Assembly (NCBI GenBank): GCA_964496615.1
Contig: CAZCAB010000002.1
Coordinates: forward strand, 1-33,608
Length of the DNA: 33,608 nucleotides
From: an uncultured Gammaproteobacteria bacterium
GTDB taxonomy: Bacteria; Patescibacteriota; Patescibacteriia; Magasanikbacterales; UBA922
Reading direction: 5' to 3'
The position numbers were made by a program, and so were the translations under genes. Each line of letters begins with the position of its first letter. Positions within the stretch are counted from its first letter, which is position 1. The notes beneath the pieces were generated by a model, which worked only from the letters and a program-made list of their open reading frames with translations, was not told the origin of the DNA and did not search any database. Below, one piece after another: positions 13,406 to 33,608 of the stretch.

Positions 13406-14518
13406 CTACTTAATATCATCAATTCCGATAGGATCAAATTTCTTTAAATCATGTATCACCTCTCTCCCAATGATACTATCATACTTTTCAGATGGTAGTC
13501 CATCTATATCAGCTTGTGGACGCATTGCATATATCATCTGCGGCTTGATACCTGTTCCTGTTGGTATATCCTGCCCTGCGACAAGCGACTTTCTAAAAAC
13601 TGGACGGAATGCCTGCTCTTCATCTTGTAATAGCTTCTCTTCTTGTGAGAGCGCCTTCTTGGCAAACGCTGATTCGAGCATTCTCTCTTTTTTTAAGGGA
13701 TTAGAAGCGAGTTCATCAAGACTACTTCTCAGTAACTTTAGCTCATTGGGTGTCATCGACACCTTATGGTCTGGCCCCCAGGCATCGCGAGACAATGTGA
13801 AGTGTTTCTCGACAACACTTGCGCCTGCAGCGTAGGCCACTAAAGCTGATTCTATCCCAAGGGAGTGATCAGAAAACCCTATCGGTATGCCTAATCGTTG
13901 TCTCAAAGTCTTAATTGTCCCAAGACGCAGATCCTCAGGTGGACATGGATATTGGGACACACAATGCAGTACCATCACCAGAGCATTTTTTTTCATCACG
14001 AATGATACCGCTTGCTCCACTTCCGCAAAAGTACTCATTCCTGAAGACAGGATGATGGGTTTTCCTGTATTTCGCAAGTAATCTAGAAGAACGAAATCAA
14101 GAATATCCGCTGAGCCAACTTTCCATACCGATATATCCAAGTCCTCAACACGCTGCGCTGCACCCCGACTCATTGGTGTCGTCATGAAGACTATTCCCAA
14201 ATCGTCACAATACGTTTTAAGCGGCCTCCAAAATGTATCCAGCGGTGTTGATATGGTATTACGCCGTACCCATTCGTATCGTTCAAGTCCCTGATAATGG
14301 GGAGAATCTACATCACGACCAAGTTGTTCATCCTCTACGTTGTGCGTTTGCCACTTGATTGCATCAGCTCCACCTGCCACAGCTTCGTCAACAATTTTTT
14401 TTGCAGTATTCAGATACTCCTCCACCGATTTTTGCTCAGCTGATTGAATAAAATTCTTACCTGCCTCTGCGATAAGAAAAGGTCCATCAATCATCTTTTG
14501 CCATACGTCACCTGTCAT
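13406..14518 (-). CDS. divergent NeuB-family (PEP-dependent nonulosonate synthase-like) protein with C-terminal SAF-like domain
   Basis: FLIAEAGKNF...ADAIKWQTH N-terminal region, HCVSQYP and GFSDHS metal-ligand contexts, VEKHFTL, and a C-terminal LVAGQDIPTGTGI SAF-like segment. The track start at 14542 is TTG, so the ATG at 14518 (with upstream GGTGA) is preferred. Confidence 0.68.
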   Translation of the reverse strand: MTGDVWQKMIDGPFLIAEAGKNFIQSAEQKSVEEYLNTAKKIVDEAVAGGADAIKWQTHNVEDEQLGRDVDSPHYQGLERYEWVRRNTISTPLDTFWRPLKTYCDDLGIVFMTTPMSRGAAQRVEDLDISVWKVGSADILDFVLLDYLRNTGKPIILSSGMSTFAEVEQAVSFVMKKNALVMVLHCVSQYPCPPEDLRLGTIKTLRQRLGIPIGFSDHSLGIESALVAYAAGASVVEKHFTLSRDAWGPDHKVSMTPNELKLLRSSLDELASNPLKKERMLESAFAKKALSQEEKLLQDEEQAFRPVFRKSLVAGQDIPTGTGIKPQMIYAMRPQADIDGLPSEKYDSIIGREVIHDLKKFDPIGIDDIK

Positions 14519-14529
14519 ATCAATCACCA

Positions 14530-15834
14530 CTACAAACTCCAATATTCCAGACCCTCTTGCTCCACTTCTTCTCTAGAGAAGATATTCTTTAAATCAGCAC
14601 AGAGCAATTTCCCCTCATTCATTAAACCTTTCAGTTCTTGAGCTGTAATCTTCTTGAACTCATCGTGGGCCACTGCGATGATAAGAACGTCTGCTTTTGG
14701 TAAATCATCTTTGTCAGACAACACTATTCCATACTCACGCTCAACCTCCGCTGGATCAGCAAGTGGGTCATAGACGACAGGCTGGACACCAAAATCAATT
14801 AATTCGTGGTACAACGAAGCCACCTTGGAATTTCGCACATCACGCACATTTTCCTTAAAAGTAACACCATAAATTAAGAATTGGGACGATTTTACATCTT
14901 TGCCCATGCGAACCATGGTCTTAATGATCTGACGAGCAACAAACTTATGCATGGTATTGTTTATTCCTCTGCCAGCTAATATGACCTCTGGTGTGTGTCC
15001 AACAGACTCCGCCTTATACGTCAGATAGTATGGATCAACACCAATGCAATGTCCGCCCACAAGACCAGGAGTAAATTTTAGAAAATTCCACTTAGTTCCC
15101 GCGGCCTCTAGTACGTCGTGCGTATTAATGTCCATTTTGTTAAACAAAATAGCAAGCTCATTCATCAAAGCAATGTTTAAATCACGCTGCGTGTTTTCGA
15201 TGACTTTTGCTGCCTCTGCAACTTTAATAGATGACGCACGAAATACGTTGGTGATTGTCCCGTACACTTGAGCAATTGCATGCGTCGTCTGATCATCCAT
15301 CCCAGCCACCACTTTTGTTACGCGATCAATAGTATGTTCAGCATCACCAGGATTAACCCGCTCAGGAGAATAGCCAACAAAAAAATCTTCGCCTGCAACT
15401 AAGCTGGATTCGCCTTCCAATGCAGGTATGCATTCTTCTTCGGTTGCACCTGGGTACACTGTTGATTCAAATACTACTATGGCACCTTTCGAAAGATGTT
15501 CTCCAACGAGAGCACTTGCGCGTCTGAGAATTGTTAAATCAGGTACATTTTTTTCATCAACGGGAGTTGGAACCGCTACGATGATAAATTTAGAACGAGT
15601 AATCACTGATGGATCGACACTAAAATTAATTCCGGAATTGCAAATCGTTTCAGAATCGAGCTCCCCGGTCCCGTCATGGCCCTGTTTCAACAGGTCGACC
15701 TTCTTCTCATCAATATCAAATCCAAAAACTGAAAAAGTTTTAGAAAGAAGTACTGCTAAAGGTAAACCTACGTAACCGAGACCGACCACACAAACATGCT
15801 CTCTCCTTTGTGTCAAATCCTCAAACAAACTCAT
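14530..15834 (-). CDS. UDP-N-acetyl-hexosamine 6-dehydrogenase (WbpO/TviB/CapL-like nucleotide-sugar dehydrogenase)
   Basis: VVGLGYVGLPLAV Rossmann motif and the GGHCIGVDPYYL catalytic Cys motif typical of this subfamily. The start at 15834 overlaps the ugd stop as ATGA. Confidence 0.8.
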   Translation of the reverse strand: MSLFEDLTQRREHVCVVGLGYVGLPLAVLLSKTFSVFGFDIDEKKVDLLKQGHDGTGELDSETICNSGINFSVDPSVITRSKFIIVAVPTPVDEKNVPDLTILRRASALVGEHLSKGAIVVFESTVYPGATEEECIPALEGESSLVAGEDFFVGYSPERVNPGDAEHTIDRVTKVVAGMDDQTTHAIAQVYGTITNVFRASSIKVAEAAKVIENTQRDLNIALMNELAILFNKMDINTHDVLEAAGTKWNFLKFTPGLVGGHCIGVDPYYLTYKAESVGHTPEVILAGRGINNTMHKFVARQIIKTMVRMGKDVKSSQFLIYGVTFKENVRDVRNSKVASLYHELIDFGVQPVVYDPLADPAEVEREYGIVLSDKDDLPKADVLIIAVAHDEFKKITAQELKGLMNEGKLLCADLKNIFSREEVEQEGLEYWSL

Positions 15835-17322: not shown

Positions 17323-17359
17323 GTTCTTGTATCGATCCACACCTATCTTGGAGGAAGCC

Positions 17360-18797: not shown

Positions 18798-18821
18798 AAA
18801 AAATCTCTGTTGAGATTTTTT
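18798..18821. terminator. bidirectional hairpin terminator between convergent genes
   Basis: AAAAAATCTC-TGTT-GAGATTTTTT lies between the FGE-like gene (+) and the end of the long minus-strand operon, overlapping the HAD stop codon by 2 nt. Confidence 0.5.
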
Positions 18822-21815: not shown

Positions 21816-21825
21816 ATACAACAAA

Positions 21826-23333: not shown

Positions 23334-24392
23334 CTATGATTCGACATCAGACCATTGAACAATGGTGCTCACTTGCATATCTTTACTCGCCTTTTTACCC
23401 AAAAAAGAGCCACTATATCTTTCATCCAAGTACTTTGCAGGTATTCCTGTTCCTGGCCGACGAGGCTCAACATTATCGAGTGTAAACTCATCCCCTTGAG
23501 TTATCTGCTTCGAAGTTACCACGCTATGATGGGCCCAATCCCGCACTGTTTGCTCCTCAGCACTTATTTCTTTTTTACAACCAAGCGAAGCCTCAATTTT
23601 TGATACTCCCTCGACTAAATCCACTAAATCTGCCGGCTCCAAGGAAATAAAGTGATCAGGTCCTGATTGATCGCGTGACAGTGTAAAATGCTTTTCCACA
23701 CAAGCTGCACCCAAAGCCGTTGCAGCATACGCCGTGAAATTATCGATCGTGTGATCGGACAGACCTACAGGCACATCAAAAGTGCTCTTCATTTTCTCTA
23801 TCATGCCAAGATTGATGTGGCTGTAATCTTTTGGAGGATACTCGGAAACGCAGTACATGAGTACAAGATGATCTTTAGCGCCTACCTCTTCATAGATACT
23901 GACTGTTTCTGCTATTTCTTCAAAAGTTGACATCCCAGTTGATACAATGATGGTTTTACCAGAACTCTTTGCAATAGTTGCTAATTTCCTATGCATCGGT
24001 AAATGTGTAAGCTCTCCGGATCCAACTTTGTATCCTGCCACACCAATGTCTTCCAACACATCAATCGCTGCGGGACAAAAAGGAGTACAAAGATATTGAA
24101 TGCCGACCTGCTCACAATAGTCTTTTATTTCTCTATGCATTTCAGGAGTGAACAAATTTTTCTTGAGAATATCATATAGTGGTCCATCCCACATCTGAAT
24201 TGACCCTGGCACCATTTCAACATCTGGAAGATGGAGCTGAAATTTGGCAACATGTGCGCCCGCTTTTTTAGCCTCATCCACCATTCGTTTTGCCGTCTGC
24301 ATGTCCCCATTATGAGAATCTGCTATCTCCACAATGATAGCTGTTGGTGCATCAGATCCTATTGATATATTTCCTAATTGACGAGTATGCAT
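23334..24392 (-). CDS. neuB: N-acylneuraminate (nonulosonate) synthase, canonical-length NeuB with SAF domain
   Basis: IIVEIADSHNGDMQTAKRMVDEAKKAGAHVAKFQ, YCVSEYP, GLSDHT and VEKHFTL motifs, plus C-terminal SAF (VVTSKQITQGDEF). Confidence 0.88.
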   Translation of the reverse strand: MHTRQLGNISIGSDAPTAIIVEIADSHNGDMQTAKRMVDEAKKAGAHVAKFQLHLPDVEMVPGSIQMWDGPLYDILKKNLFTPEMHREIKDYCEQVGIQYLCTPFCPAAIDVLEDIGVAGYKVGSGELTHLPMHRKLATIAKSSGKTIIVSTGMSTFEEIAETVSIYEEVGAKDHLVLMYCVSEYPPKDYSHINLGMIEKMKSTFDVPVGLSDHTIDNFTAYAATALGAACVEKHFTLSRDQSGPDHFISLEPADLVDLVEGVSKIEASLGCKKEISAEEQTVRDWAHHSVVTSKQITQGDEFTLDNVEPRRPGTGIPAKYLDERYSGSFLGKKASKDMQVSTIVQWSDVES

Positions 24393-24393: not shown

Positions 24394-25113
24394 TTATTTT
24401 TTCTGAATGATTTCCTTCATTATAAGCTCTGCATAATCAAAATCTCTTTGCGTATCGATATCAAGGGCATACACACTATCCATCTCGTATCCATAGGTAT
24501 TCTCACCCCAGAGCGTCTTAGTACTATACATGCTACTAACTTTAAATGCATAAATTGCTGAATTGATATAGTATGATTCAGACACATCTTGATTTCTGTG
24601 TTTCATATCCTTCACCTGAGCCCCATCAATGACTCTCGTGAGCATATGCGATGTATCAATTTTCAACTGCTTGTATACACTGTATTTTGGATCAACAAGC
24701 GAGACACCAACAACAGAATCAATACCATCATGGTTTTGTATGATTTGTGCGACATCCTGAATGTGATTCACTTGTCTACCTGGGCATGAAGGCTCCAGAA
24801 GGACAACCCAATCAGGGTCATAATTATCATGCTCTTTAAGCCAAGTAACTGCGTGAAATATGGGATCAAAAGAAGATGATGTATCAGTCGCATATTCAGG
24901 TGGGCGCATGAACGGAACTTCGAGACCACAATCTAGACCAACTTGAGCAATCTGCTCATCGTCTGTTGAAAGTATGAATCGATCCAGCACGTTACTTTCT
25001 AGACCAACAGATGCTGTCCAAGCAAGAAGTGGTTTACCCAAAAACGACCTGATATTCTTTCCCGGCAGTCTTTTTGACCCTCCTCGTGCTGTTACGATTC
25101 CTAGGATATTCAT
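24394..25113 (-). CDS. neuA: acylneuraminate cytidylyltransferase, NeuA-like paralog 2
   Basis: IVTARGGSKRLPGKNI...GKPLLAWT. The track start at 25119 is TTG, so the ATG at 25113 (MNILGIV) is preferred. Confidence 0.85.
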   Translation of the reverse strand: MNILGIVTARGGSKRLPGKNIRSFLGKPLLAWTASVGLESNVLDRFILSTDDEQIAQVGLDCGLEVPFMRPPEYATDTSSSFDPIFHAVTWLKEHDNYDPDWVVLLEPSCPGRQVNHIQDVAQIIQNHDGIDSVVGVSLVDPKYSVYKQLKIDTSHMLTRVIDGAQVKDMKHRNQDVSESYYINSAIYAFKVSSMYSTKTLWGENTYGYEMDSVYALDIDTQRDFDYAELIMKEIIQKK

Positions 25114-25156
25114 GAACAATATGTCGATATATAATACAATAAAGTATCAAGAAGTG

Positions 25157-25309
25157 TCAACTAGTGCCATTTCTCTGATTTGCCTTATTGTAAACTATGT
25201 CAAACATTCGTTTTCCTGACTGCCCATCAATCATATAACAAAACTGTTCAATGAGTTTTTGTCTGTTCGCCTTGTCGACATTTGGATTATAAATATATGT
25301 ATCAATCGC
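25157..25309 (-). other. out-of-frame C-terminal continuation (50 codons plus stop) of the upstream GT-B-like gene
   Basis: Hand translation of the -1 frame gives AIDTYIYNPNVDKANRQKLIEQFCYMIDGQSGKRMFDIVYNKANQRNGTS*, a typical glycosyltransferase C-terminal helix region with no start codon of its own. It joins the 25302..26552 frame if the A8 tract loses one A. Confidence 0.6.
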
Positions 25310-26552
25310 TTTTTTTTAGCTGTTCTTCACTTTCAACAACCTGTGCAGCCTTCACAGAAAGAATCTCCGTGAAATAATCAGTCAAATACCACCGCTTAAC
25401 ACTTCTATGAAAAGGTTTTGGAGTGGGTCCATCAAAGTTAATTAAAATCACAGGCTTACCCATAGCAGCACCATCTAATGTTAAAGTTGAACACGTATTG
25501 ATAACAACATCTGAGTGATACAGAGAATTCAAAAAATGATTCATTTGCTTATCTGAGTAATCCCATCTGTCTCTAAAATTGCTTGACGGATTATTTTGTC
25601 GATCAACAACGACATTTGGTCGATCGAAATAGTCCTTGAACTTAAGGTGATCATCCTTGTGTGCAAAGTGCGGTCTAATGAGGAGTTGCGCAGGTTGTTT
25701 GAATGCATCCTGGTCAATGAGATCTGCAATGACACCAGCCACATCTGGATCAGTAGGAACGTACTTACCTTCAGACCCAAAGAAGATAATTTTTTTATTT
25801 GGATCAAGACCAAGCGAGGCACAAAAATCTTCTCGAGATTCGATCAGGGCGTTATCGCTGTAATAATCAAACTGTGGAACACCGGTAATAGCTATCTGTG
25901 ACGGATGGTAATCCTGCAATGTCTGCATCTGCTTTTTCATGAAGTGACTCCACACGACTACCGTGTCAGCCTTCGCCCTAAAGTAGAGCTTTGAAGGATT
26001 ATCCCATGACTTCGGCATAGCTACGGATGGCACCTTGAGCCTGCGTGCTGCCTTAAGTAGCGCGGATTCGCTATCCTCACCCATGCTCGTTGAAAAAATC
26101 ACAGATGGCTCATGAGCTAGTATCATTGACGTGTATTGACGCACCATGTCCTTTTGCAATAAAAGGTAATCAAGCCATCGCAAGAACTTTCTCACAAATT
26201 GCACTTTTGAAAGTGGATAAAAAAGTGATTTTATGACAACATATTTTACTTTCGAAGGAGGCTCCAAAGAATCCCCGACCGTATCATACCGGATCAACTT
26301 TTCCGTTGTTTTATTGTAGATAATATATTTGTTCACCTTATGAATGAGCAGACGTAGCAGTGTGTTTTCTGATGGTAACATTGGAAGAAAAGTCACATTC
26401 TCCGCTCCAAATTCAGAGATGAATCTTTCATCATTATTTGCGGGGGTAACGATGAAAACCTGGTCAAAGTTCTTCTTCAATTCTTTAAAAAAAGTATTCT
26501 TGAGAAGATTTCTGGCAGTACCGCCGCGAGATATGGTGATCATTACATTCAT
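25302..26552 (-). CDS. unassigned GT-B-like / capsule-type transferase candidate (416 aa as called, probably C-terminally truncated by frameshift)
   Basis: Two Rossmann-like halves (MNVMITISRGGTARNLL... and DVVINTCSTLTLDGAAMGKPVILINF) resemble TagF/capsule-synthesis-type GT-B proteins. No specific CAZy-family motif recognised. The start overlaps the upstream stop as ATGA (26549-26552). Confidence 0.5.
   Translation of the reverse strand: MNVMITISRGGTARNLLKNTFFKELKKNFDQVFIVTPANNDERFISEFGAENVTFLPMLPSENTLLRLLIHKVNKYIIYNKTTEKLIRYDTVGDSLEPPSKVKYVVIKSLFYPLSKVQFVRKFLRWLDYLLLQKDMVRQYTSMILAHEPSVIFSTSMGEDSESALLKAARRLKVPSVAMPKSWDNPSKLYFRAKADTVVVWSHFMKKQMQTLQDYHPSQIAITGVPQFDYYSDNALIESREDFCASLGLDPNKKIIFFGSEGKYVPTDPDVAGVIADLIDQDAFKQPAQLLIRPHFAHKDDHLKFKDYFDRPNVVVDRQNNPSSNFRDRWDYSDKQMNHFLNSLYHSDVVINTCSTLTLDGAAMGKPVILINFDGPTPKPFHRSVKRWYLTDYFTEILSVKAAQVVESEEQLKKSD
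25310..25317 (-). repeat. A8 (T8 on plus strand) homopolymer at the frameshift point
   Basis: Counted directly: ...cgc tttttttt agc... The current frame reads CTA AAA AAA AGC GAT TGA. Confidence 0.9.
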
Positions 26553-27511
26553 ATACTCTGACTAGTTTTATAAAAGCTCTCGATCTTCTGCGCAATAAAC
26601 ATATCTGTCTTCTCTCGAGATTCATGGGTCACCCCACCAATATGAGGAACGATAATACAGTTGTCGCTTTTTTGCGCGTATGCAATAAGCGGGTGAGAGA
26701 CATTCTCCGTATCAAACGATAGTTCTCCTGACAGAACATCAGCCGCATAGCCAGCGATTAATCCTTCTTCTAGAGCATTGAGCAGATCTTTTTCATTTAC
26801 GATTTCGCCGCGAGATGTGTTGATAAGATAGGCGCTCTTCTTCATGCGACCAAACGAGTCAGCATTAATCATTGCGCGCGTCTCATCATTTAGATGGACA
26901 TGTATCGATATGATATCACTGTTTTTAAGCAGGTCCCGAAAATCTGACCGCATCTCACCATGTTGAGGTGCATTCTCTACATATGGATCATATACTATTA
27001 CTTTCATGTCAAAGGCTCGAGCATATCTTGCCATCATTTTCCCCAACCGACCATGTCCGATAAGACCTAACGTTTTACCCTGTAATGTGTGCCCTCTAAA
27101 ATTCTCACGCTTCCAGTTTTCTTTCTTTACTGAAAAAAAGCTGTGACTCATCTTTCTCATGATATCGATCATGAGGCCCCATGCAAGTTCGGCAGTGCCA
27201 GTTATAGTATCCAAAAATTCAGTCTCGCCTCGCAGACTCAAAATGGCAACCCCCTTATCTTGTGCAGCATCCATGTCTATATGATCGAGTCCTGTCGTTG
27301 GCGTCGCAAGCACCTGTAGCTGACTCGCGCTATCAAAAACGTCTTTATCAAAAGTTACACCAAGAGATGTGATGATAGCATGATAATGCGCGACTTGCTG
27401 CTTCAACTGCTCCTGAGTCATATCCGCATAATCAACAGATCCAATTTTATCAAGTATCTTCTTGGCAGAATCTGTAAAGTTGGGGACCAAATTGAGGATG
27501 CGAATAGACAT
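26549..27511 (-). CDS. D-isomer-specific 2-hydroxyacid dehydrogenase (SerA/glycerate dehydrogenase-like)
   Basis: GKTLGLIGHGRLGKMMA NAD-binding motif, NTSRG, and the catalytic PHIGGVTHES context. Confidence 0.85.
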   Translation of the reverse strand: MSIRILNLVPNFTDSAKKILDKIGSVDYADMTQEQLKQQVAHYHAIITSLGVTFDKDVFDSASQLQVLATPTTGLDHIDMDAAQDKGVAILSLRGETEFLDTITGTAELAWGLMIDIMRKMSHSFFSVKKENWKRENFRGHTLQGKTLGLIGHGRLGKMMARYARAFDMKVIVYDPYVENAPQHGEMRSDFRDLLKNSDIISIHVHLNDETRAMINADSFGRMKKSAYLINTSRGEIVNEKDLLNALEEGLIAGYAADVLSGELSFDTENVSHPLIAYAQKSDNCIIVPHIGGVTHESREKTDMFIAQKIESFYKTSQSI

Positions 27512-27514: not shown

Positions 27515-28237
27515 CTAATTATTTTCATTACGCTTCAACAAAAAAGAAGCAAACTCAAAATCGATCGGCTCGTTTATATCCACTGATCGATCCTCTGGCA
27601 TAACATACGCACGAGAATCCGCCCCAAAAATATCACCTTCCATAACCAGATCAGTGCGAGTCAGATATATAGCACAGTTTCTTTTATATATAGGCTCTGC
27701 ATCCTGCCTCCGAGCTGATGCGGTACCTTCATTACTCACAGCAGATGTAATAACGCCATTTTCAATATATTTAAGTTTGGCCAGTGACATGTCAGTCAAC
27801 TCATACATACTCATCACCGAATCTGCGCCCGAATCCACAATCATTTCTATGCAAGCATCAATATCTTCACTTGTTCTCAATGGCGAAGTGGGCTGCAGAA
27901 CCATGACATAATCATATGAGATATCATCTAAATCAGCGAGTGATGTTACTGCATGCTGCATAAACTCTATTGCTGTGCTCCTATCCTGCGAAATTTCATC
28001 TGGCCTCATAAACGGAACTTCAGCTCCAGCCGCTCGCGATAATTCGGCTATTTGCACATCATCCGTGGAAACTATGCATCTGGTTAAGAAAGCGCTTTTT
28101 TGAGCGGCCTCTATCGTCCAATATATGAGAGGTTTACCAAGAAGCGGCCTAATATTTTTTTGGGCAATACCTTTAGAACCACCGCGAGCCGGGATGATAC
28201 CAAGGACCTTTTTGTTTTTGTACATTCCAGAATTCAT
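27515..28237 (-). CDS. acylneuraminate cytidylyltransferase, NeuA-like paralog 3
   Basis: IIPARGGSKGIAQKNI...GKPLIYWTI. The track ORF extends into the upstream gene, so the first ATG after that gene's stop (28237) is used. 28225 is an alternative. Confidence 0.85.
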   Translation of the reverse strand: MNSGMYKNKKVLGIIPARGGSKGIAQKNIRPLLGKPLIYWTIEAAQKSAFLTRCIVSTDDVQIAELSRAAGAEVPFMRPDEISQDRSTAIEFMQHAVTSLADLDDISYDYVMVLQPTSPLRTSEDIDACIEMIVDSGADSVMSMYELTDMSLAKLKYIENGVITSAVSNEGTASARRQDAEPIYKRNCAIYLTRTDLVMEGDIFGADSRAYVMPEDRSVDINEPIDFEFASFLLKRNENN

Positions 28238-28244
28238 ACTGCGA

Positions 28245-29978
28245 TTACAACTGGTATTTTGCTCCAATACCCAAGCCATCATAGTGAACATGGTCGATTG
28301 ATTGAAAATCAAAATCCACGAAAATAGCCCATCCATCAAATAGCAAGCTCGGTCGCGCAAGTGTCTTCACTAATGAATAAATTCCTAGATCATAAAAAGA
28401 ATGATGGTTATTAAGAACCACAACACAGTCTGCATTCATGAATCCATTTTCAACCGATGTTGGGGTCACATCAAGTGTCTGTAACTCTTCATCAGCGACA
28501 ACAGGATCATGGACATATATGTTCTTATATTCTTTTTGTATCTCCTGCATGATTTCAACTCCAGTGGACGATCGCAAATCAGAAGTTTCAGGTTGTCCCT
28601 TAAAGGCAAGTCCCATTATGAAGATTTTAGGGTCTGTCACACCTCGTTTATGAGTACGCAGAAAAGTAATTACTTTTTGGGCAACAAATGAAATCATGCT
28701 CTCATTTATATCACGACCAACGATCGGTAGCTTAGGTGTGTACGATATAGACTCGGATGATTTCATAAAGATGAAGGGATCCTTAGTAAGACATGCCCCG
28801 CCCACACCCGGGCTTGGTACTGGAATATTGTTTCGGGGATACCCCAAATTTGCGGCCTCAATAACCTCATACGTATTGAGTGAAAAGCCATCCATAACTT
28901 GTGATAATTCGTTGGAATATGCGAATGTTAAATCCCTGTACGTGTTATTCACGAGCTTTACAGCTTCTGCAGCCTCCAGCGTACTTACCATGCGGATCGA
29001 TCTCACAAATTCTTTAAAGAGATTAGCAGCTAAGTCTGAACTTGCTTTGTCATATCCACCAATTACTTGAGGAATGCTACGTATCTCTTGAAGCGCCACC
29101 CCTTCGGCTGTACGCTCCGGCGCAAATGCAACAAAGAAATCTCTGCCCGCTTTGTAATCGGTTTCTCTCTCAAGAATCGGAATAACAAAGTTTCGACATG
29201 TACCAATTGGTACTGTCGAACGCAAGACAATCAGATCATTTGGTTTGAGTATCTTTGAGATAACCTTTAGCGAGCTTTCCAAATATTGCATTTGGACTGT
29301 ATTTGTATCATCGACAGGAGTTCCAACACATATGATGTAAACATCACTTACACCCTCTTGAAATTCACTCGTAACAATAAATCTGTTATCAATATGGCGT
29401 TGCAGTAATTCATCAAGACCCTTTTCAAAAAAATGTGATTTTCCGGTGCGCAGCTGCGCAACCACGGACTCCTTAATATCAACGCCAATAACCTCAAAAC
29501 CGACTTCCGCCAAGGTGAGTGCAAGCGTGAGACCCACGTAACCTAATCCGATGACTCCAACACGGCGAGTTTTAACCTCACTCATCTTCCATAGCTCAAA
29601 AAAAGAGTACACATCAGTTGGTCTTCTTTGATCATCCACCAAGATCACTTTATCAATTGCATTGTATGGAATATTTCGTGCACGTATCTGTTCAAATACA
29701 CGTGGTAGCATGTTATGGACAGGCACATCGGATTCGATCGTGATTGGATCTGTTGTCATTATCTCGCCCACAGAAACATCGAGGTTAAATCCACTTAATA
29801 GTGCTCGACGAATATCGCCATCAGTAACAACACCTTCAAGTATGCTATTGCTATCAACAACAAGTACTATTCCGTGCAGCACCTCTGAATCACCGCCCAC
29901 ACCATGAGTTATCATACTCATGACTTCCTTTATTGTGGCATGTCGATTTGTTTGTAGATGATTGTTTCTGATCTTCAT
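28245..29978 (-). CDS. CBS-pair fused to a UDP-sugar 6-dehydrogenase (WecC/UDP-ManNAc dehydrogenase-like)
   Basis: N-terminal approx 130 aa carry CBS motifs (ATIKEVMSM...GIVLVVD...LEGVVTDGDIRRALL). These are followed by VGVIGLGYVGLTLALTLAE Rossmann and GVGGACLTKDP catalytic Cys motifs. Confidence 0.8.
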   Translation of the reverse strand: MKIRNNHLQTNRHATIKEVMSMITHGVGGDSEVLHGIVLVVDSNSILEGVVTDGDIRRALLSGFNLDVSVGEIMTTDPITIESDVPVHNMLPRVFEQIRARNIPYNAIDKVILVDDQRRPTDVYSFFELWKMSEVKTRRVGVIGLGYVGLTLALTLAEVGFEVIGVDIKESVVAQLRTGKSHFFEKGLDELLQRHIDNRFIVTSEFQEGVSDVYIICVGTPVDDTNTVQMQYLESSLKVISKILKPNDLIVLRSTVPIGTCRNFVIPILERETDYKAGRDFFVAFAPERTAEGVALQEIRSIPQVIGGYDKASSDLAANLFKEFVRSIRMVSTLEAAEAVKLVNNTYRDLTFAYSNELSQVMDGFSLNTYEVIEAANLGYPRNNIPVPSPGVGGACLTKDPFIFMKSSESISYTPKLPIVGRDINESMISFVAQKVITFLRTHKRGVTDPKIFIMGLAFKGQPETSDLRSSTGVEIMQEIQKEYKNIYVHDPVVADEELQTLDVTPTSVENGFMNADCVVVLNNHHSFYDLGIYSLVKTLARPSLLFDGWAIFVDFDFQSIDHVHYDGLGIGAKYQL

Positions 29979-29998: not shown

Positions 29999-31150
29999 TT
30001 AATCACAAAATCTCTTTTGTGTGTAAAGAGGGAGAGTTGCTAATAGATGTGCAATCTGGCTACTCGTACCGGGCTTATAGTACATATCACTCTGAGCATA
30101 GCATCCACGGCGAAGTTGAGTTTCAATTGCATCTTGTATCCGTGTTGCATCATATTCAGCATCAATAATGTGCTCTCCTCGCATGCGACCTGACTGTCTG
30201 GTACCAATATTTACAACTGGTGTACCAAAATATGAAGCTTCCTTTATCCCTGCAGATGAATTACCGACAAGACAAGCTGCGTTCTTAAGCAAGTACGCAA
30301 AATGCCCTGGCTCAATATGCTTGATAAAACGTATTTGATGAGTATCCTGCTCCTCTCTGAAGACACGCAACGCTTTACTCACCTCGTCAGTCCCCGCATC
30401 CACATTTGGCCAAAACCAAATTGCTGGTGTATTACTTTTGCTAACAGCGTCCAATGTTTGTTCAGTGTTAAACCTGTTATCACCTATCTCACTCGTAACA
30501 GGATGTTGCACAACCATGAGATACGGCTGGGTAAGATCAATCTCGCTACCAACCCCAGTCGTATTAATTAATTCTCGTGAGACGTCCTTAGTCTCTTTTG
30601 CAATAAATTCAATCCCAGGACAACCAACATTAAAGACATACTCAGGCTGTTCCCCCATACGGATCAAACGGTCCTTAGATACATTATTGGTTGGGAAATG
30701 AATATGCGCTAACTTAGAAATCGCATGACGAACACTCTCGTCAATCGTGCCGGTCACATCTCCCCCTTCAATATGTGCTACCGGAATATTAAGGTATGCA
30801 GCAGACACGGCCGCAGACAAAACTTCATACCTATCCCCTCTCACGACGACAACATCTGGCTTAATATTGTCAAAAGCAGTTGCAAATTCGGCTATTCCAA
30901 TACCTGTAGTTTTAGCCATTGCCACAGCAGAACCACCTTCAAGTGTCATGGTAATCTTTGCACTACAGGTAAAGCCATCCTTCTCAATGAGCGTTAATAC
31001 ATCCCCATAATTAGGTAAGATAGCAGAGGCTCCAACGATAATACTCAGATCTAGAGCATCATTTTTCTTTATTTCGTCTAAAATAAGTTTGCTCCGAGCA
31101 TAATGAATTTTGGAGGTGATGATAAACGCAATTTTTCTTTTCTTTGACAT
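29999..31150 (-). CDS. UDP-N-acetylglucosamine 2-epimerase, hydrolysing type (NeuC-like) paralog 2
   Basis: HIEGGDVTGTIDESVRHAISKLAHIHF. 383 aa and strongly diverged from paralog 1. Confidence 0.8.
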   Translation of the reverse strand: MSKKRKIAFIITSKIHYARSKLILDEIKKNDALDLSIIVGASAILPNYGDVLTLIEKDGFTCSAKITMTLEGGSAVAMAKTTGIGIAEFATAFDNIKPDVVVVRGDRYEVLSAAVSAAYLNIPVAHIEGGDVTGTIDESVRHAISKLAHIHFPTNNVSKDRLIRMGEQPEYVFNVGCPGIEFIAKETKDVSRELINTTGVGSEIDLTQPYLMVVQHPVTSEIGDNRFNTEQTLDAVSKSNTPAIWFWPNVDAGTDEVSKALRVFREEQDTHQIRFIKHIEPGHFAYLLKNAACLVGNSSAGIKEASYFGTPVVNIGTRQSGRMRGEHIIDAEYDATRIQDAIETQLRRGCYAQSDMYYKPGTSSQIAHLLATLPLYTQKRFCD

Positions 31151-31158: not shown

Positions 31159-32250
31159 TTAATGGGGGTTTGGTCTGTCCTGATCACTATCCCCTTTTGT
31201 TAGGAACCAATTTGCTGGATTATGAAATGCATCTTGATTAATCTGAGTATCTTGATTCCATACCGCATAGTTAATGTAGTTCTTTGAATATGAAATCGGA
31301 TTGAAAAATAATGGTAGATCTTTATATACCGTTTTGTATACATCTACAAAACCAAGTGATTCAAGCGTGCTTTTATACATGAACCCTGAAAACATAAATT
31401 CAAGCATGTCCACTTCAAGCGATCCAAGCTCATTCATACAAACGAGCAATATCTCCTGCTCGGCATGCTCATACGCAATAAAATCTATCATACGCGCAAC
31501 TCGATACTCTTCCACAGCCTCAATGCGATAGATGACGTATCCAACGATTATTCCTTGGCTATCCCGCGCGACAAGTATTTTATAATCTAAGTATGGATGA
31601 TCAACATAGCGCCACTTTAAATAAGCATATGAACGCTCCACAGTATTTTGATAGCGCGCCTTAACTTGTGACCAAAATTCATCTATCTGACTATCAAACT
31701 CGGTGCTATAAACATACTCTTTCGAAGATGACTGTAGCGGAGGAACATCTCCTGCGACCATATCTTTTGCCTGGGCTTTTTTCGGCAACAAACTGTTCAC
31801 TTTTTCTGCATTATATATGTATACAAAACGATTGAAATTGCCCATGTTATGCCAATCTCCAAGCTTTTCATATATTGAAAAACTGTCAGGATTAAAACCT
31901 TCTATAAAAGCAATATCAGAACGATTCATCGCTGCTTTGATCAGAAGAGCGCCGGCACCAAACGCCCGGAGACGCTCATCAACATACAAATTGACGTAAT
32001 TACAAACAAGTCGAGAATCGCCCGAAATAGTATATGGCATAGGTATCAAACCAACTGATCCATATATAGTATCTGCTTCTTTGAGAATATAAAACTCATA
32101 ATCTTCTGCATACGGATTCGCGGCGAATTGCCAATCAAAAAATACTGGATCGCTCAAGATGTACTTGTCATGAAAATGTGTACGCGCGAATGCCTGGTAC
32201 AGTGGATAATCTGCTTTAGTCAGCTTTTGTACATTTTTCATTCCAATCAT
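31159..32250 (-). CDS. two-lobed GNAT/FemAB-like (Acetyltransf_6-like) acyltransferase candidate
   Basis: 363 aa. GNAT motif-A-like RLRAFGAGALLIKAA sits in the first half, and YLKWRY with a second alpha/beta lobe in the second. The assignment is by weak pattern only. Confidence 0.4.
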   Translation of the reverse strand: MIGMKNVQKLTKADYPLYQAFARTHFHDKYILSDPVFFDWQFAANPYAEDYEFYILKEADTIYGSVGLIPMPYTISGDSRLVCNYVNLYVDERLRAFGAGALLIKAAMNRSDIAFIEGFNPDSFSIYEKLGDWHNMGNFNRFVYIYNAEKVNSLLPKKAQAKDMVAGDVPPLQSSSKEYVYSTEFDSQIDEFWSQVKARYQNTVERSYAYLKWRYVDHPYLDYKILVARDSQGIIVGYVIYRIEAVEEYRVARMIDFIAYEHAEQEILLVCMNELGSLEVDMLEFMFSGFMYKSTLESLGFVDVYKTVYKDLPLFFNPISYSKNYINYAVWNQDTQINQDAFHNPANWFLTKGDSDQDRPNPH

Positions 32251-32255
32251 ATCTT

Positions 32256-32960
32256 TTATAAATGGCTCCCGCCGGTTACGTGCATATTCTCACCTGTTAT
32301 AAACTCTGCCTCATCTGATGCTAGGAAAAGAACTGCATTTGCAACATCAATAGGCCTCGTGGTTCTCCCCAGTGGTGTGCCATGGACAACAACTTCTGTG
32401 AGCTTCTCAGGAAATACACTCGAAAAATCGTTTGAAACTAAACCAGGCGAAACTGCATTGACTGTAATCCCAAATCTACCAAGCTCCTTTGCCATACAGC
32501 GAGTTAACCCCAGGAGCGCATATTTTGCAGCAACATAATCAGCGACATACGATGGTGTCTCATTTTCTGCATACGTGGTCAGAACATTTATTATGCGTCC
32601 ATATCTTTTTTCCTTCATGCTCGGAAGAAGTTGAGGCAGTACTTCCACCGCGGCCTTGAGCTGCACATTCATCTGCGCTTCAAAATCAGACCATATCTTC
32701 GATCCGATCGGTCCAATTTTAAGAGGAGCGCTTAGTGCATTAACTAATATATCTATCCCATCTGACTGGGACAAAACTGTATCCATGAGCTGACTCAATT
32801 GACCTGAATCACGTACGTCCGCAGCGTATGGCTGCTGTGATCTGCTATGCGAGAAGACTTCAGCGCCAGATCGTTCAAACTGTGAAACCACTTCGGATCC
32901 AATGTCCCCATCGCCACCCAGAACAAGGACCTTCTTGCTTTCGAAATCTATATTTTTCAT
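32256..32960 (-). CDS. short-chain dehydrogenase/reductase (FabG/3-oxoacyl reductase-like)
   Basis: VLGGDGDIGSEVV cofactor motif and the YVAAKYALLGL (YxxxK) catalytic motif. The start overlaps the MaoC stop as ATGA (32957-32960). Confidence 0.85.
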   Translation of the reverse strand: MKNIDFESKKVLVLGGDGDIGSEVVSQFERSGAEVFSHSRSQQPYAADVRDSGQLSQLMDTVLSQSDGIDILVNALSAPLKIGPIGSKIWSDFEAQMNVQLKAAVEVLPQLLPSMKEKRYGRIINVLTTYAENETPSYVADYVAAKYALLGLTRCMAKELGRFGITVNAVSPGLVSNDFSSVFPEKLTEVVVHGTPLGRTTRPIDVANAVLFLASDEAEFITGENMHVTGGSHL

Positions 32961-33394
32961 ATGTCTCTAACTTTTACACGTGCACAGCCGTCTACTGACA
33001 ATTCACCATTTGATCCTAATACTTGTGTACGCAATTCAACCATATTTAGTGCTTCCACTGTGTTTATGACCTCTGCTCTCACGTGTACCGTACTATCAAC
33101 TAAAACAGGTTGGCGATACTGAGTATCTTGTGATATATACAGACTCCTCTCCCCTGGACACATCATGCCGATTATCTGAGAAAAGAATGCGCTGAGTAAA
33201 GCCCCGTGCACAACTCGAAATCCAAATTCCGAATTGGTCGCATATGCTTCATCCACGTGTAGTGGATTATAATCACCAGTCAATGCGGCGAACGCGTCTA
33301 CCATCTCTTCAGTTATATGCTGTGTAAACTCAAACACATCCCCAACGGTTATCTGATCAAAACGTAATGTCTGAGCTTTTTCCTTAACTTGCAT
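32957..33394 (-). CDS. MaoC-like hotdog-fold (R)-specific enoyl-thioester hydratase/dehydratase
   Basis: 145 aa with the GDYNPLHVDEAYA hydratase motif and VVHGALL. Confidence 0.85.
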   Translation of the reverse strand: MQVKEKAQTLRFDQITVGDVFEFTQHITEEMVDAFAALTGDYNPLHVDEAYATNSEFGFRVVHGALLSAFFSQIIGMMCPGERSLYISQDTQYRQPVLVDSTVHVRAEVINTVEALNMVELRTQVLGSNGELSVDGCARVKVRDI

Positions 33395-33395
33395 A

Positions 33396-33608
33396 CTATA
33401 TATTTACGCCATGCTTTCTAAGTGCTGATTTAATATCGCCAACATTCGTTACACTAACAACTTCATCCATGCTAAATGAAACGTCAAAATTTTTCTCAAG
33501 TTCAGTGACTAAAATAAGACCATTAAATGAATCCCAACTCTCAGTATTCTGTGGCGACATATCCTCATTGATATTTTCGACTGGTACTGCAAGTACTCGC
33601 GAGAGTAT
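33396..33608 (-). CDS. acyl carrier protein-like, partial (C-terminal 70 aa; N-terminus beyond the right edge)
   Basis: Hand translation gives ...VENINEDMSPQNTESWDSFNGLILVTELEKNFDVSFSMDEVVSVTNVGDIKSALRKHGVNI*. WDSF fits the phosphopantetheine-attachment DS(L/F) context of small carrier proteins from polysaccharide loci. Confidence 0.65.
   Translation of the reverse strand: MLSRVLAVPVENINEDMSPQNTESWDSFNGLILVTELEKNFDVSFSMDEVVSVTNVGDIKSALRKHGVNI

What the first reader, a model, noticed from the sequence alone, without database searches (positions are those of the whole stretch)
31159..33608. ACP - MaoC hydratase - SDR - GNAT/FemAB-like module heading the NulO operon: candidate carrier-protein-dependent (hydroxy)acyl decoration
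Four consecutive tightly coupled genes sit directly upstream of a NeuC-like gene. They encode a small carrier protein (WDSF site), a hotdog hydratase, a FabG-like reductase and a two-lobed acyltransferase-like protein. Together they could build a short 3-hydroxyacyl (for example 3-hydroxybutanoyl) thioester and transfer it to an amino sugar. N-(3-hydroxybutanoyl) groups are chemically documented on pseudaminic and legionaminic-type sugars of several Gram-negative glycans, but the genes responsible are poorly defined. The module is cut by the window edge, so a ligase or ketosynthase that loads the ACP may lie just upstream.
Basis: inference. Interest (0 to 1): 0.7.

Follow-up and report, generated by a model that had tools for sequence, protein, structure and literature searches.

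The report
Carrier-protein acyl module for sialic-like sugars
Four tightly packed genes at the window edge are real and probably belong to a widespread, unstudied cassette that builds a three-carbon hydroxy-acid (likely lactoyl or glyceroyl, not 3-hydroxybutanoyl) on a carrier protein and attaches it to a sialic-acid-like surface sugar.

Summary
Four minus-strand genes, spaced +1, -4, +5 and +8 nt, encode an ACP (cut by the window edge), a PhaJ-like MaoC dehydratase, an SDR and a 363-aa protein, followed by a NeuC gene. The 363-aa protein ("GNAT2") models confidently as a double-GNAT fold. It resembles N-myristoyltransferase and Eis, not FemAB.

The 3-hydroxybutanoyl reading is not supported. 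All seven independent related loci with the same ACP-MaoC-SDR-GNAT2 order carry an FkbH glyceryl-ACP synthase, and six an AcpS-type PPTase; none has a ketosynthase or ligase. The 11 ACPs most similar to the window's lie in FkbH loci. MaoC co-occurs with FkbH in 25 of 28 loci. Natural fusions exist: FkbH-ACP-GNAT2, ACP-GNAT2 and MaoC-SDR.

Best model: FkbH loads glyceryl-ACP, MaoC dehydrates it to pyruvoyl-ACP, SDR reduces it to lactyl-ACP, and GNAT2 N-acylates a nonulosonic-acid intermediate, probably after removal of an N-acetyl group. No step has been tested biochemically.

The GNAT2 family is large (1,092 clusters at E<=1e-30) and has no functional annotation. N-glyceroyl and N-(R)-lactoyl pseudaminic acids are chemically known; I found no assigned genes.

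The window's upstream genes are inferred from synteny, and the acceptor is unknown.

The parts
33396..33608 (-). Acyl carrier protein, N-terminally truncated by the window edge. 70 codons are present, and the phosphopantetheine Ser lies in a W-D-S-F motif.
   Evidence: PF00550, 23.4 bits against a 20.8 cutoff. The frame is open to the window edge. It is 45-63% identical to ACPs of FkbH-containing loci, and its 11 best matches all lie in such loci.
32957..33394 (-). MaoC / PhaJ-like hotdog dehydratase. Its proposed role is to dehydrate glyceryl-ACP to enol-pyruvoyl/pyruvoyl-ACP.
   Evidence: PF01575, E=1.2e-18. The hydratase-2 motif with catalytic Asp and His is intact. The nearest solved structures are (R)-specific enoyl-CoA hydratases 5cpg and 1iq6. 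It co-occurs with FkbH in 25 of 28 loci and is fused to the SDR in Acidobacteriota. The role itself is an inference.
32256..32960 (-). Classical short-chain dehydrogenase/reductase. Its proposed role is a ketoreductase converting pyruvoyl-ACP to lactyl-ACP.
   Evidence: adh_short_C2, E=2.5e-44. The FabG models score 142.7 bits against a 296-bit cutoff, so it is not a FabG equivalog. It has the GGDGDIG and Y142-x3-K146 motifs. Orthologues are 32-47% identical and sit in the same position in seven loci. The role itself is an inference.
31159..32250 (-). GNAT2, a double-GNAT (NMT/Eis-like) acyltransferase of an unannotated family. Its proposed role is acyl-ACP:amino-sugar N-acyltransferase.
   Evidence: AlphaFold2 model with pLDDT 93.2 and pTM 0.91. 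Foldseek best match is NMT 7rk3_A, E=1.7e-15, followed by Eis-like 3n7z. A family profile against PDB sequences also finds NMT, E=5e-5. Invariant motifs are YLKWRYxxHP and a C-terminal TKGDSDQDRPN. Fusions to ACP, FkbH and AMP-ligase occur in other organisms.
29999..31150 (-). NeuC-type hydrolysing UDP-sugar 2-epimerase, co-inherited with the module.
   Evidence: TIGR03568, 379.5 bits. It is 62-63% identical to the NeuC of FkbH cassettes L001 and L006.
27515..28360 (-). CMP-ulosonic acid synthetase (PseF-like, below the equivalog cutoff), co-inherited with the module. The true start is probably downstream of the TTG.
   Evidence: PF02348, E=6.7e-27. TIGR03584 scores 152 bits against a 205.7 cutoff. 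It is 57-61% identical to the cassette CMP-transferases of L011, L014, L006 and L001.
26549..27511 (-). D-2-hydroxyacid dehydrogenase, conserved next to the CMP-transferase in these cassettes. Its role is unexplained.
   Evidence: PF02826, E=1.8e-52. It is 51-52% identical to the L011, L014 and L001 orthologues and is present in 26 of 83 loci.
25302..26552 (-). Putative ulosonic-acid glycosyltransferase, distantly BFO_1060/TagB-like.
   Evidence: NF046086, 50.9 bits against a 200-bit cutoff (a weak hit), and a weak Glyphos_transf hit. It is 48% identical to the gene directly after GNAT2 in L001.
13406..14542 (-). The NeuB paralogue that is orthologous to the NeuB of FkbH cassettes. It lies 17 kb from the module.
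   Evidence: PF03102, E=7.6e-67. It is 51% identical to the L001 and L011 cassette NeuB, whereas the other two window NeuB paralogues are 28-31% identical to the same L001 NeuB.

Best explanation
The four genes are the downstream part of a conserved cassette that makes a short hydroxyacyl group on a dedicated carrier protein and puts it on an amino group of a nonulosonic-acid (sialic-acid-like) sugar.

Proposed sequence of steps:
1. An AcpS-type PPTase converts the ACP to its holo form. (Inferred for the window; the gene is seen in relatives.)
2. An FkbH enzyme takes a glycolytic C3 unit (1,3-bisphosphoglycerate), dephosphorylates it and loads it as glyceryl-S-ACP. (Inferred for the window. 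The family function comes from established knowledge of FkbH/OzmB.)
3. The MaoC dehydratase removes the 3-OH to give enol-pyruvoyl/pyruvoyl-ACP. (Inference.)
4. The SDR reduces the 2-keto group to give lactyl-ACP. (Inference, by analogy with the DH*/KR* pair of the FR901464 starter-unit pathway; from my own knowledge.)
5. The double-GNAT enzyme GNAT2 transfers the acyl group from the ACP to a free sugar amine. A NodB-type deacetylase that accompanies GNAT2 in most loci probably frees that amine by removing an N-acetyl group. (Inference.)

The product would be an N-lactoyl NulO, or an N-glyceroyl NulO where MaoC and SDR are absent. It would be activated by the adjacent CMP-transferase and installed by the adjacent glycosyltransferase.
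For: Shown:
- The domains and tight coupling are real.
- GNAT2 has a double-GNAT fold.
- All seven independent loci with contiguous ACP-MaoC-SDR-GNAT2 (L001, L004, L005, L006, L010, L012, L014) carry FkbH, and all but L014 have it directly after an AcpS gene. In L010 it lies downstream of GNAT2.
- The FkbH assignment was verified on three of them: TIGR01686, 302-320 bits against a 146.65 cutoff.
- 34 FkbH homologues keep the HAD DxD motif and an S-C-R motif.
- The 11 ACPs most similar to the window ACP all lie in FkbH loci.
- MaoC co-occurs with FkbH in 25 of 28 loci.
- Fusion proteins exist. FkbH-ACP-GNAT2: L021, 1084 aa, and P0087. ACP-GNAT2: L019, P0055, P0089, P0097 and P0057. MaoC-SDR: L056 and other Acidobacteriota loci.
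- The flanking NeuC, CMP-transferase, 2HADH, GT and one NeuB of the window are 48-63% identical to those of FkbH cassettes.
- NulO genes lie within 10 kb in 51 of 83 loci, and a NodB-type deacetylase in 62 of 83.

Chemistry precedent:
- FkbH loads glycerate onto carrier proteins (PMC10143770).
- An N-(R)-lactoyl pseudaminic acid exists in Psychrobacter marincola (PMC7281560).
- An N-glyceroyl pseudaminic acid exists in Tannerella forsythia, with its genetic basis undefined (PMC5378307).
Against: - FkbH, the PPTase and the deacetylase are not visible in the window, and it could not be extended.
- Two related loci break the rule. L081 has MaoC-SDR, ACP and GNAT2 but no FkbH. L070 pairs MaoC-SDR with an unscanned 516-aa gene, the size of the AMP-ligases found elsewhere.
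- No enzyme of the cassette has been assayed.
- PhaJ-like hydratases normally act on 3-hydroxyacyl thioesters without a 2-OH.
- The SDR could act on the sugar instead of the acyl-ACP.
- The acceptor is unknown. The window has no aminotransferase, so it is unclear which amine is acylated.
- 32 of 83 family loci show no NulO gene within 10 kb. One example is an Azospirillum polysaccharide locus.
- No homologue was traced to the organisms whose N-lactoyl or N-glyceroyl sugars are chemically known.
Confidence: 0.55

Rival explanations
1. The ACP is loaded by a ketosynthase or ligase with a C4 unit. The FabG-like SDR reduces acetoacetyl-ACP, or the MaoC enzyme hydrates crotonyl-ACP, to give (R)-3-hydroxybutanoyl-ACP. 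GNAT2 then transfers that group to a NulO amine.
For: - The nearest solved relatives of MaoC are PhaJ (R)-specific enoyl-CoA hydratases acting on C4-C6 substrates.
- The best NCBIfam models for the SDR are FabG and acetoacetyl-CoA reductase.
- N-3-hydroxybutanoyl NulOs are chemically documented (abbreviation list in PMC5378307; PMC8157484).
- A few distant GNAT2 loci do carry FabH-like ketosynthases: 2 of 44 neighbouring proteins scanned.
Against: - None of the seven loci with the same four-gene order has a ketosynthase or ligase next to the ACP. All have FkbH.
- The window ACP clusters with FkbH-partnered ACPs.
- MaoC tracks FkbH in 25 of 28 loci.
- The SDR scores far below the FabG equivalog cutoffs.
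- A hydratase and a ketoreductase are redundant for making 3-hydroxybutanoyl. For glyceryl to lactyl they are complementary.
Confidence: 0.1
2. The transferred group is glyceroyl (possibly O-methylated), as in T. forsythia Pse5Am7Gra or the C. jejuni di-O-methylglyceroyl-Pse. MaoC and SDR do something else: the SDR acts on the sugar, or the hotdog protein edits or hydrolyses mis-loaded ACP.
For: - Many loci have FkbH-ACP-GNAT2 without MaoC, for example L007, L011, L016, L020 and L025. Glyceryl-ACP is therefore a competent donor for this family.
- Methyltransferases are frequent neighbours (37 of 83 loci). In L006 one lies between FkbH and the ACP.
- N-glyceroyl and di-O-methylglyceroyl Pse are known (PMC5378307, PMC3068675).
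- C. jejuni cj1302 is an FkbH-domain gene in the flagellar glycosylation locus (PMC7099621).
Against: - The MaoC catalytic Asp and His are intact in 21-22 of 28 cassette copies.
- MaoC and SDR are inserted between the ACP and GNAT2 genes and are fused to each other in Acidobacteriota. This mirrors the DH-KR pairs that convert glyceryl-ACP to lactyl-ACP (own knowledge: He et al. 2014, Angew Chem).
Confidence: 0.2
3. The module does not decorate a nonulosonic acid. GNAT2 acylates another acceptor made by the locus: a hexosamine, a uronic-acid amide or a teichoic-acid-like polymer. By analogy with NMT, the acceptor could even be a protein amine.
For: - 32 of 83 family loci have no NeuB, NeuC or CMP-transferase within 10 kb.
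- The Azospirillum chromid locus has O-antigen ligase, glycosyltransferases, deacetylase, ACP, an adenylating enzyme, AsnB and GNAT2, but no NulO genes.
- L012 has the full module with TagF-like transferases and no NulO genes.
- The best structural match is a protein N-acyltransferase.
Against: - In the window and its closest relatives, GNAT2 directly abuts NeuC or the CMP-transferase. Those flanking genes are co-inherited at 48-63% identity.
- 31 of 39 FkbH-type loci carry NulO genes.
Confidence: 0.12

Closest known systems
FkbH-dependent glyceryl-ACP pathways of polyketide and NRPS biosynthesis. Examples: FkbGHIJK methoxymalonyl-ACP; OzmB; glycerate loading in suomilide and varlaxin AerB; the DH*/KR* lactyl-ACP starter unit of FR901464 and the BryA loading module.
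   Same: A dedicated ACP is loaded by an FkbH enzyme (seen in all seven syntenic loci). A dehydratase plus a ketoreductase follow, which in FR901464 convert glyceryl-ACP to lactyl-ACP (own knowledge). O-methyltransferases are often adjacent, as in methoxymalonyl or O-methylglycerate units (PMC10143770).
   Different: There is no PKS or NRPS here. The acyl group is handed to a GNAT-type transferase in a sugar locus. The dehydratase is a free-standing PhaJ-like MaoC and the reductase a free-standing SDR, not PKS DH and KR domains. FkbH itself is not visible in the window.
NodF/NodE - NodB - NodA (Nod-factor N-acylation), and the LpxC/LpxD logic.
   Same: A specialised ACP carries the acyl group. 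A NodB-family deacetylase frees a sugar amine, and an N-acyltransferase takes the acyl group from the ACP. The deacetylase accompanies GNAT2 in 62 of 83 loci.
   Different: The acyltransferase fold is different (double GNAT, against NodA or the LpxD left-handed helix). The acyl group is C3 and hydrophilic, not a fatty acid. The acceptor is presumably a NulO pathway intermediate. No deacetylase gene lies inside the window. This is an analogy from established knowledge, not homology.
PseH, LegH and PglD: acetyl-CoA-dependent N-acetyltransferases of NulO pathways.
   Same: They N-acylate an amino-sugar intermediate within Pse and Leg biosynthesis.
   Different: Those are single-domain GNAT or hexapeptide enzymes that use acetyl-CoA. 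GNAT2 is a 360-aa double GNAT that occurs fused to ACP, FkbH or AMP-ligase. It matches no PseH or LegH model in NCBIfam.
N-myristoyltransferase and Eis-type double-GNAT acyltransferases.
   Same: Two tandem GNAT lobes. The N-lobe keeps the R-x-x-G-x-G pantetheine-binding motif. Foldseek gives E=1.7e-15 and TM about 0.57 to NMT, and an Eis-like protein (3n7z) ranks 20th.
   Different: Sequence identity is 11-14%. There are no NMT Pfam hits. The family-specific invariant motifs YLKWRYxxHP and the C-terminal TKGDSDQDRPN are not known to me from NMT or Eis. The genomic context is glycan biosynthesis.
Chemically known N-glyceroyl and N-lactoyl NulOs: T. forsythia Pse5Am7Gra, C. jejuni di-O-methylglyceroyl-Pse, and Psychrobacter marincola Pse7Ac5-N-(R)-lactoyl.
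   Same: These are exactly the products the cassette would be expected to make. The genetic basis of the Gra group was called 'a major challenge' (PMC5378307). C. jejuni has an FkbH-domain gene, cj1302, in its flagellar glycosylation locus (PMC7099621).
   Different: No homologue from these organisms was recovered in any search here, so the link is a hypothesis. The window organism is uncultured and its glycan is unknown.

Membership tests
Acyl carrier protein (PF00550, PP-binding) | Four-helix carrier domain matching the PP-binding model, with a conserved Ser for phosphopantetheine attachment. | tested here: met
   23.4 bits against a 20.8 cutoff; Ser in W-D-S-F. It is 45-63% identical to full-length ACPs of related loci. 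The N-terminus is truncated by the window edge.
MaoC / (R)-specific enoyl thioester hydratase (hydratase-2) | Hotdog fold plus the hydratase-2 motif [YF]-x(1,2)-[LVIG]-[STGC]-G-D-x-N-P-[LIV]-H-x5-[AS]. | tested here: met
   PF01575, E=1.2e-18. Exact motif FAALTGDYNPLHVDEAYA. PhaJ structures 5cpg and 1iq6 match at E=1e-21 to 1e-20.
FabG (3-oxoacyl-ACP reductase equivalog) | Score above the NCBIfam equivalog cutoff for FabG models. | tested here: not met
   The best model, NF004198, scores 142.7 bits against a 296-bit cutoff, and TIGR01830 scores 138.4 against 297.75. It is a classical SDR with Gly-rich and Y-x3-K motifs, but not a FabG orthologue.
GNAT superfamily, double-GNAT (NMT/Eis-like) architecture | Two tandem GNAT folds, with an R/Q-x-x-G-x-G/A motif in the donor-binding lobe. 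| tested here: met
   AlphaFold2 model with pLDDT 93.2. Foldseek probability is 1.00 to NMT and to Eis-like 3n7z over 320-365 columns. The motif R-A-F-G-A-G is at residues 95-100. Acetyltransf_1 scores 22.6 bits against a 20.7 cutoff.
N-myristoyltransferase family proper | Matches to the NMT Pfam domains, and a protein N-terminal Gly substrate. | tested here: not met
   No NMT Pfam family appears among the hits. Identity to NMT is 11-13%. The context is glycan biosynthesis. The substrate was not testable.
FemAB / FemX family | FemAB Pfam domain, aminoacyl-tRNA donor, and a coiled-coil insertion in FemA. | tested here: not met
   There is no FemAB hit in Pfam or NCBIfam. FemX and FemA do not appear among the top 50 structural matches. 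The donor is carrier-protein linked, as shown by the fusions.
FkbH-primed glyceryl-ACP system | An FkbH (TIGR01686) gene adjacent to the ACP. | not testable with these tools
   The window ends inside the ACP gene, and no overlapping contig was found. In all seven loci with the same gene order, FkbH is present. It was verified on three of them at 302-320 bits against a 146.65 cutoff.
FkbH-primed glyceryl-ACP system | FkbH catalytic residues: the HAD DxD nucleophile motif and a conserved Cys in the C-terminal domain. | tested here: met
   In 34 FkbH homologues from related loci, D222-L-D224 is invariant and S490-C491-R492 is present in 33 of 34 (numbering of the L004 protein). This was tested on relatives, not on the window.
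Nonulosonic-acid biosynthesis locus | NeuB-type synthase, NeuC-type epimerase and CMP-transferase in the same locus. | tested here: met
   The window has three NeuB, two NeuC and three CTP_transf_3 genes. The NeuC, CMP-transferase and NeuB orthologues co-inherited with the module are 51-63% identical to those of FkbH cassettes.

The most novel reading that the evidence does not exclude
The conserved core of the cassette in L001 and L014 is NeuC + NeuB + CMP-transferase + NodB-type deacetylase + FkbH/ACP/GNAT2, and I identified no aminotransferase among the annotated genes of either locus. The most novel reading is therefore an N-acyl exchange pathway on a neuraminic-acid-type sugar, giving N-lactoyl or N-glyceroyl neuraminic acid. 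That would be a bacterial counterpart of Neu5Gc, made by deacetylation followed by ACP-dependent re-acylation. It would be widespread in Patescibacteria (CPR), Acidobacteriota and Planctomycetota. The GNAT2 family, with swappable loaders (FkbH, AMP-ligase, FabH, LuxE), would then be the general enzyme that diversifies N-acyl groups on bacterial surface sugars.
Probability: 0.2. Interest if true: 0.85.

Novelty: new variant of a known kind. Interest (0 to 1): 0.66.

Why it matters
Nonulosonic acids carry a wide range of N-acyl groups that shape immune recognition, phage binding and flagellar assembly. Apart from acetyl and acetimidoyl, the enzymes that install them are largely unknown. In 2017 the genetic basis of the N-glyceroyl group of Tannerella Pse5Am7Gra was explicitly called a major challenge (PMC5378307). 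The N-lactoyl Pse reported in 2020 has, as far as I could find, no assigned genes (PMC7281560).

This analysis links a large unannotated double-GNAT family to dedicated carrier proteins and, in the window's branch, to FkbH. The family has 1,092 clusters at E<=1e-30. That link gives a concrete, testable biosynthetic route for C3 hydroxyacyl decorations, and a genomic marker to predict them. It also shows that FkbH glyceryl-ACP chemistry, known from polyketides, is used in glycan tailoring, including in CPR bacteria.

Tried and rejected
- **Extending the window past 33608.** An exact-protein look-up found no other contig. A 26-mer scan of metagenome contigs found nothing. A close-relative scan also found nothing.
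- **Linking the family to organisms with known chemistry.** Three large protein searches returned only 'hypothetical' or 'GNAT family' names, with no Tannerella, Campylobacter or Psychrobacter. L010 was chosen as a possible Pseudomonadales relative. Its protein turned out to be 88% identical to a Woesebacteria protein, so the MAG is probably mis-binned.
- **Literature searches.** Two searches were badly designed and returned noise. I could not retrieve the FR901464 DH*/KR* paper from the library, so it is cited from memory.
- **My own HMM labels.** The ACP, GNAT2 and MaoC HMMs were contaminated by fusion proteins. The contamination exposed the fusions, which I then confirmed with Pfam. Counts use the best-scoring label per ORF and a crude ORF caller, so they are approximate.
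- **Polyketide extender-unit reading (methoxymalonyl-ACP).** Rejected. No PKS or NRPS genes, and no FkbI- or FkbK-type dehydrogenases, were seen in any locus.
- **FemAB reading.** Rejected.
- **Plasmid search.** It gave distant relatives only, at 19-25% identity. The Azospirillum locus supports the deacetylase-ACP-loader-GNAT2 logic but lacks NulO genes. The E. albertii plasmid copy has no informative neighbours.

Full report
**Observation**

The region 31159-33608 holds four consecutive minus-strand ORFs.

- The last ORF in window coordinates is an acyl carrier protein. The ORF list gives it as 54 aa from an ATG, but the frame stays open to base 33608, so 70 codons are present. It matches PF00550 at 23.4 bits against a 20.8 cutoff, with the Ser in W-D-S-F. 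Homologues are 74-81 aa, so about 5-10 codons are cut off.
- 32957-33394 is a MaoC hotdog protein (PF01575, E=1.2e-18). It has a perfect hydratase-2 motif, FAALTGDYNPLHVDEAYA. Its closest solved relatives are PhaJ (R)-enoyl-CoA hydratases.
- 32256-32960 is a classical SDR (adh_short_C2, E=2.5e-44). Its best NCBIfam models are FabG, but at 142.7 bits against a 296-bit cutoff.
- 31159-32250 (363 aa) has only a weak GNAT hit in its N-terminal third and no NCBIfam family.

Gene junctions are +1, -4, +5 and +8 nt. A NeuC gene follows (TIGR03568, 379.5 bits).

**The wider window**

The window is one long glycan locus, almost all on the minus strand. It holds three NeuB, two NeuC, three CMP-transferase-type genes, three nucleotide-sugar dehydrogenases, a PGDH-like 2-hydroxyacid dehydrogenase, glycosyltransferases and an initiating sugar transferase. 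It ends in PBP, YtxH and BacA genes. No aminotransferase was found in the window.

**The 363-aa protein (GNAT2)**

An alignment of 27 homologues shows two invariant signatures: YLKWRYxxHP and a C-terminal Y-x-T-K-G-D-S-D-Q-D-R-P-N. The AlphaFold2 model is confident (pLDDT 93.2, pTM 0.91). Foldseek against the PDB gives N-myristoyltransferase first (7rk3_A, E=1.7e-15, TM about 0.57), and the Eis-like B. anthracis acetyltransferase 3n7z among the top 20. A sequence profile also finds NMT first (E=5e-5).

It is NMT/Eis-like rather than FemAB-like, and no FemAB hit appears anywhere. The N-lobe keeps the R-x-x-G-x-G pantetheine-binding motif. All the family-specific invariant residues, many of them Arg or Asp, lie in the C-lobe. 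That fits a charged sugar or nucleotide-sugar acceptor, but this is an inference.

**What loads the ACP**

The window cannot be extended, so I used relatives. Contigs encoding the homologues P0004 (45% identity), P0008 (35%) and P0010 (33%) all show the order AcpS-type PPTase, a 521-565-aa protein, ACP, MaoC, SDR, GNAT2. That upstream protein is an FkbH enzyme: TIGR01686 at 302-320 bits against a 146.65 cutoff, plus HAD-IIIC.

A scan of one genome per species found at least 345 loci with a GNAT2 relative, across many phyla. I annotated 83 loci with HMMs seeded from the verified proteins.

- All seven independent loci with contiguous ACP-MaoC-SDR-GNAT2 (L001, L004, L005, L006, L010, L012, L014) have FkbH, and six of the seven also have AcpS.
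- None has a ketosynthase or ligase in that position.
- The 11 ACPs most similar to the window ACP (39-63% identity) all lie in FkbH loci.
- MaoC co-occurs with FkbH in 25 of 28 loci.
- 34 FkbH homologues keep the HAD DxD motif and an S-C-R motif.

**Fusion proteins**

These were confirmed with Pfam.

- FkbH-ACP-GNAT2 occurs as a 1084-aa protein in L021 (Aureliella, Planctomycetota), and again in P0087.
- ACP-GNAT2 occurs in L019, P0055, P0089 and P0097. P0057 has an extra N-terminal region before the ACP-GNAT2 part.
- MaoC-SDR fusions of about 400-425 aa are the rule in Acidobacteriota loci (for example L056).

The fusions show that GNAT2 takes its acyl group from a phosphopantetheinyl carrier, and that MaoC and SDR act as a pair.

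In loci without FkbH, GNAT2 is instead preceded by other loaders. Among 44 neighbouring proteins scanned, 11 were AMP-binding ligases, two were FabH-like ketosynthases and one locus had LuxC and LuxE. P0111 is an AMP-ligase-GNAT2 fusion. The family therefore looks like a general carrier-dependent N-acyltransferase with exchangeable loaders. The window belongs to the FkbH branch.

**Link to nonulosonic acids**

- NeuB, NeuC or CMP-transferase genes lie within 10 kb in 51 of 83 loci, and in 31 of 39 FkbH loci.
- The genes flanking the module in the window are orthologous to those of FkbH cassettes: NeuC 29999-31150 (62-63% identity), CMP-transferase 27515-28360 (57-61%), 2-hydroxyacid dehydrogenase (51-52%), glycosyltransferase 25302-26552 (48% to the gene directly after GNAT2 in L001), and the NeuB at 13406-14542 (51%).
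- The other NeuB, NeuC and CMP-transferase paralogues in the window are far less similar to those cassette genes (27-45% identity where comparable) and appear to serve other sugars.
- The most frequent partner of GNAT2 is a NodB-type polysaccharide deacetylase, in 62 of 83 loci. This suggests a deacetylate-then-reacylate logic.
- No deacetylase lies in the window. In L001 and L014 it sits upstream of AcpS and FkbH, so it may lie beyond the window edge.
- An independently annotated Azospirillum chromid shows deacetylase, ACP, adenylate-forming enzyme, AsnB, NadE-like protein and GNAT in a polysaccharide locus without NulO genes. The family is therefore not exclusive to NulOs.

**Mechanism (inferred)**

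1. FkbH enzymes load a glycolysis-derived C3 unit as glyceryl-S-carrier protein. This is established for FkbH and OzmB, and the suomilide and varlaxin examples are described in PMC10143770.
2. A dehydratase acting on glyceryl-ACP yields enol-pyruvoyl/pyruvoyl-ACP.
3. A ketoreductase then yields lactyl-ACP. This is the chemistry of the FR901464 DH*/KR* pair and of the bryostatin loading module (own knowledge; I could not retrieve the paper here).

The MaoC-SDR pair is inserted between the ACP and GNAT2 genes, its catalytic residues are intact, and it is fused in some lineages. All of this fits that role. GNAT2 would then N-acylate a sugar amine. Cassettes lacking MaoC and SDR would transfer glyceroyl directly.

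Both predicted products exist in nature. T. forsythia has N-glyceroyl Pse (Pse5Am7Gra), whose genetic basis was called a major challenge (PMC5378307). Psychrobacter marincola has N-(R)-2-hydroxypropanoyl Pse, reported in 2020 as the first lactic-acid-decorated Pse (PMC7281560). C. jejuni NCTC 11168 makes di-O-methylglyceroyl-Pse (PMC3068675) and has an FkbH-domain gene, cj1302, in its flagellar glycosylation locus (PMC7099621). I found no paper connecting FkbH, an ACP and a GNAT to these groups.

**Limits**

- FkbH, AcpS and the deacetylase are inferred for the window from synteny.
- Two loci are exceptions. L081 lacks FkbH, and L070 pairs MaoC-SDR with an unscanned 516-aa gene, the size of the AMP-ligases found elsewhere.
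- The acceptor amine is unknown.
- None of the searches recovered homologues from the organisms with known chemistry.
- My locus counts rest on a crude ORF caller and self-built HMMs.
- The role of the conserved 2-hydroxyacid dehydrogenase is unexplained.

**Novelty and verdict**

The GNAT2 family is large: 1,092 clusters at 50% identity with E<=1e-30, and 6,921 at E<=1e-10. Where it is named at all, it is annotated only as 'GNAT family' or 'hypothetical', and it has no dedicated Pfam or NCBIfam model.

The parts are known kinds: FkbH/ACP, a dehydratase-reductase pair, and a GNAT. Their combination as a sugar N-acyl tailoring cassette appears undescribed. I rate it a new variant of a known kind.

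Noticed in passing
window 17000-19000 (gene 17294-18697, + strand): A GC-rich island (52.5% against about 43% elsewhere). It carries the only long plus-strand gene inside the minus-strand NulO gene run, an FGE-sulfatase/SUMF1-like protein (PF03781, E=2.6e-35). It looks like a foreign insertion between the HAD and UDP-glucose dehydrogenase genes.
   Followed up: no
window 13406-14542, 19495-21030, 23334-24392 (NeuB); 22177-23328, 29999-31150 (NeuC); 21078-21824, 24394-25119, 27515-28360 (CMP-transferases): One locus holds three NeuB, two NeuC and three cytidylyltransferase paralogues, only 26-41% identical to each other. One NeuB is fused to a cupin domain. This suggests up to three different ulosonic acids. 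No aminotransferase was seen in the window.
   Followed up: partly
window 26549-27511; also L001, L011, L014, L022, L038 and others: A PGDH-like D-2-hydroxyacid dehydrogenase sits next to the CMP-transferase in 26 of 83 GNAT2 loci. This includes loci whose ACP loader is an AMP-ligase rather than FkbH. Its role in NulO biosynthesis is unexplained.
   Followed up: partly
window 28245-29978: A nucleotide-sugar dehydrogenase (UDP-ManNAc-dehydrogenase-like, below the equivalog cutoff) with an N-terminal CBS domain. It is inserted between NeuC and the CMP-transferase, and none of the closest FkbH cassettes has a counterpart (its only matches, 31-34% identity, are in distant FkbH-less loci).
   Followed up: no
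window 27515-28360: The listed TTG start makes this ORF overlap the upstream gene by 116 nt. The Pfam match begins at residue 54, so the real start is probably near the internal Met, around base 28220.
   Followed up: no
L021:1903-5157; P0087; P0111; L019:9677-11038; L056:6546-7799: Natural fusion proteins in other organisms. FkbH-ACP-GNAT2 (1084 and 1068 aa), AMP-ligase-GNAT2 (866 aa), ACP-GNAT2 (about 450 aa) and MaoC-SDR (about 417 aa).
   Followed up: yes
L010 (CAZBTU010000060.1, labelled uncultured Pseudomonadales): Its GNAT2 is 88% identical to a protein named from Candidatus Woesebacteria. The MAG assignment may be a binning error. The window's closest relatives are mostly Patescibacteria/CPR and Tara Oceans contigs.
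   Followed up: partly
L087 (Azospirillum ramasamyi plasmid NZ_CP029830.1, 256491-281546): A cultured organism carries polysaccharide deacetylase, ACP, adenylate-forming enzyme, AsnB, NadE-like protein and a GNAT2 relative, next to O-antigen ligase and glycosyltransferases and without NulO genes. It is a possible experimental system for the family.
   Followed up: partly
window 2263-3396 (+) and 8994-11096 (-): A 377-aa plus-strand ORF has no Pfam match. A 700-aa S8 subtilase is embedded among the glycan genes. Neither was examined further.
   Followed up: no
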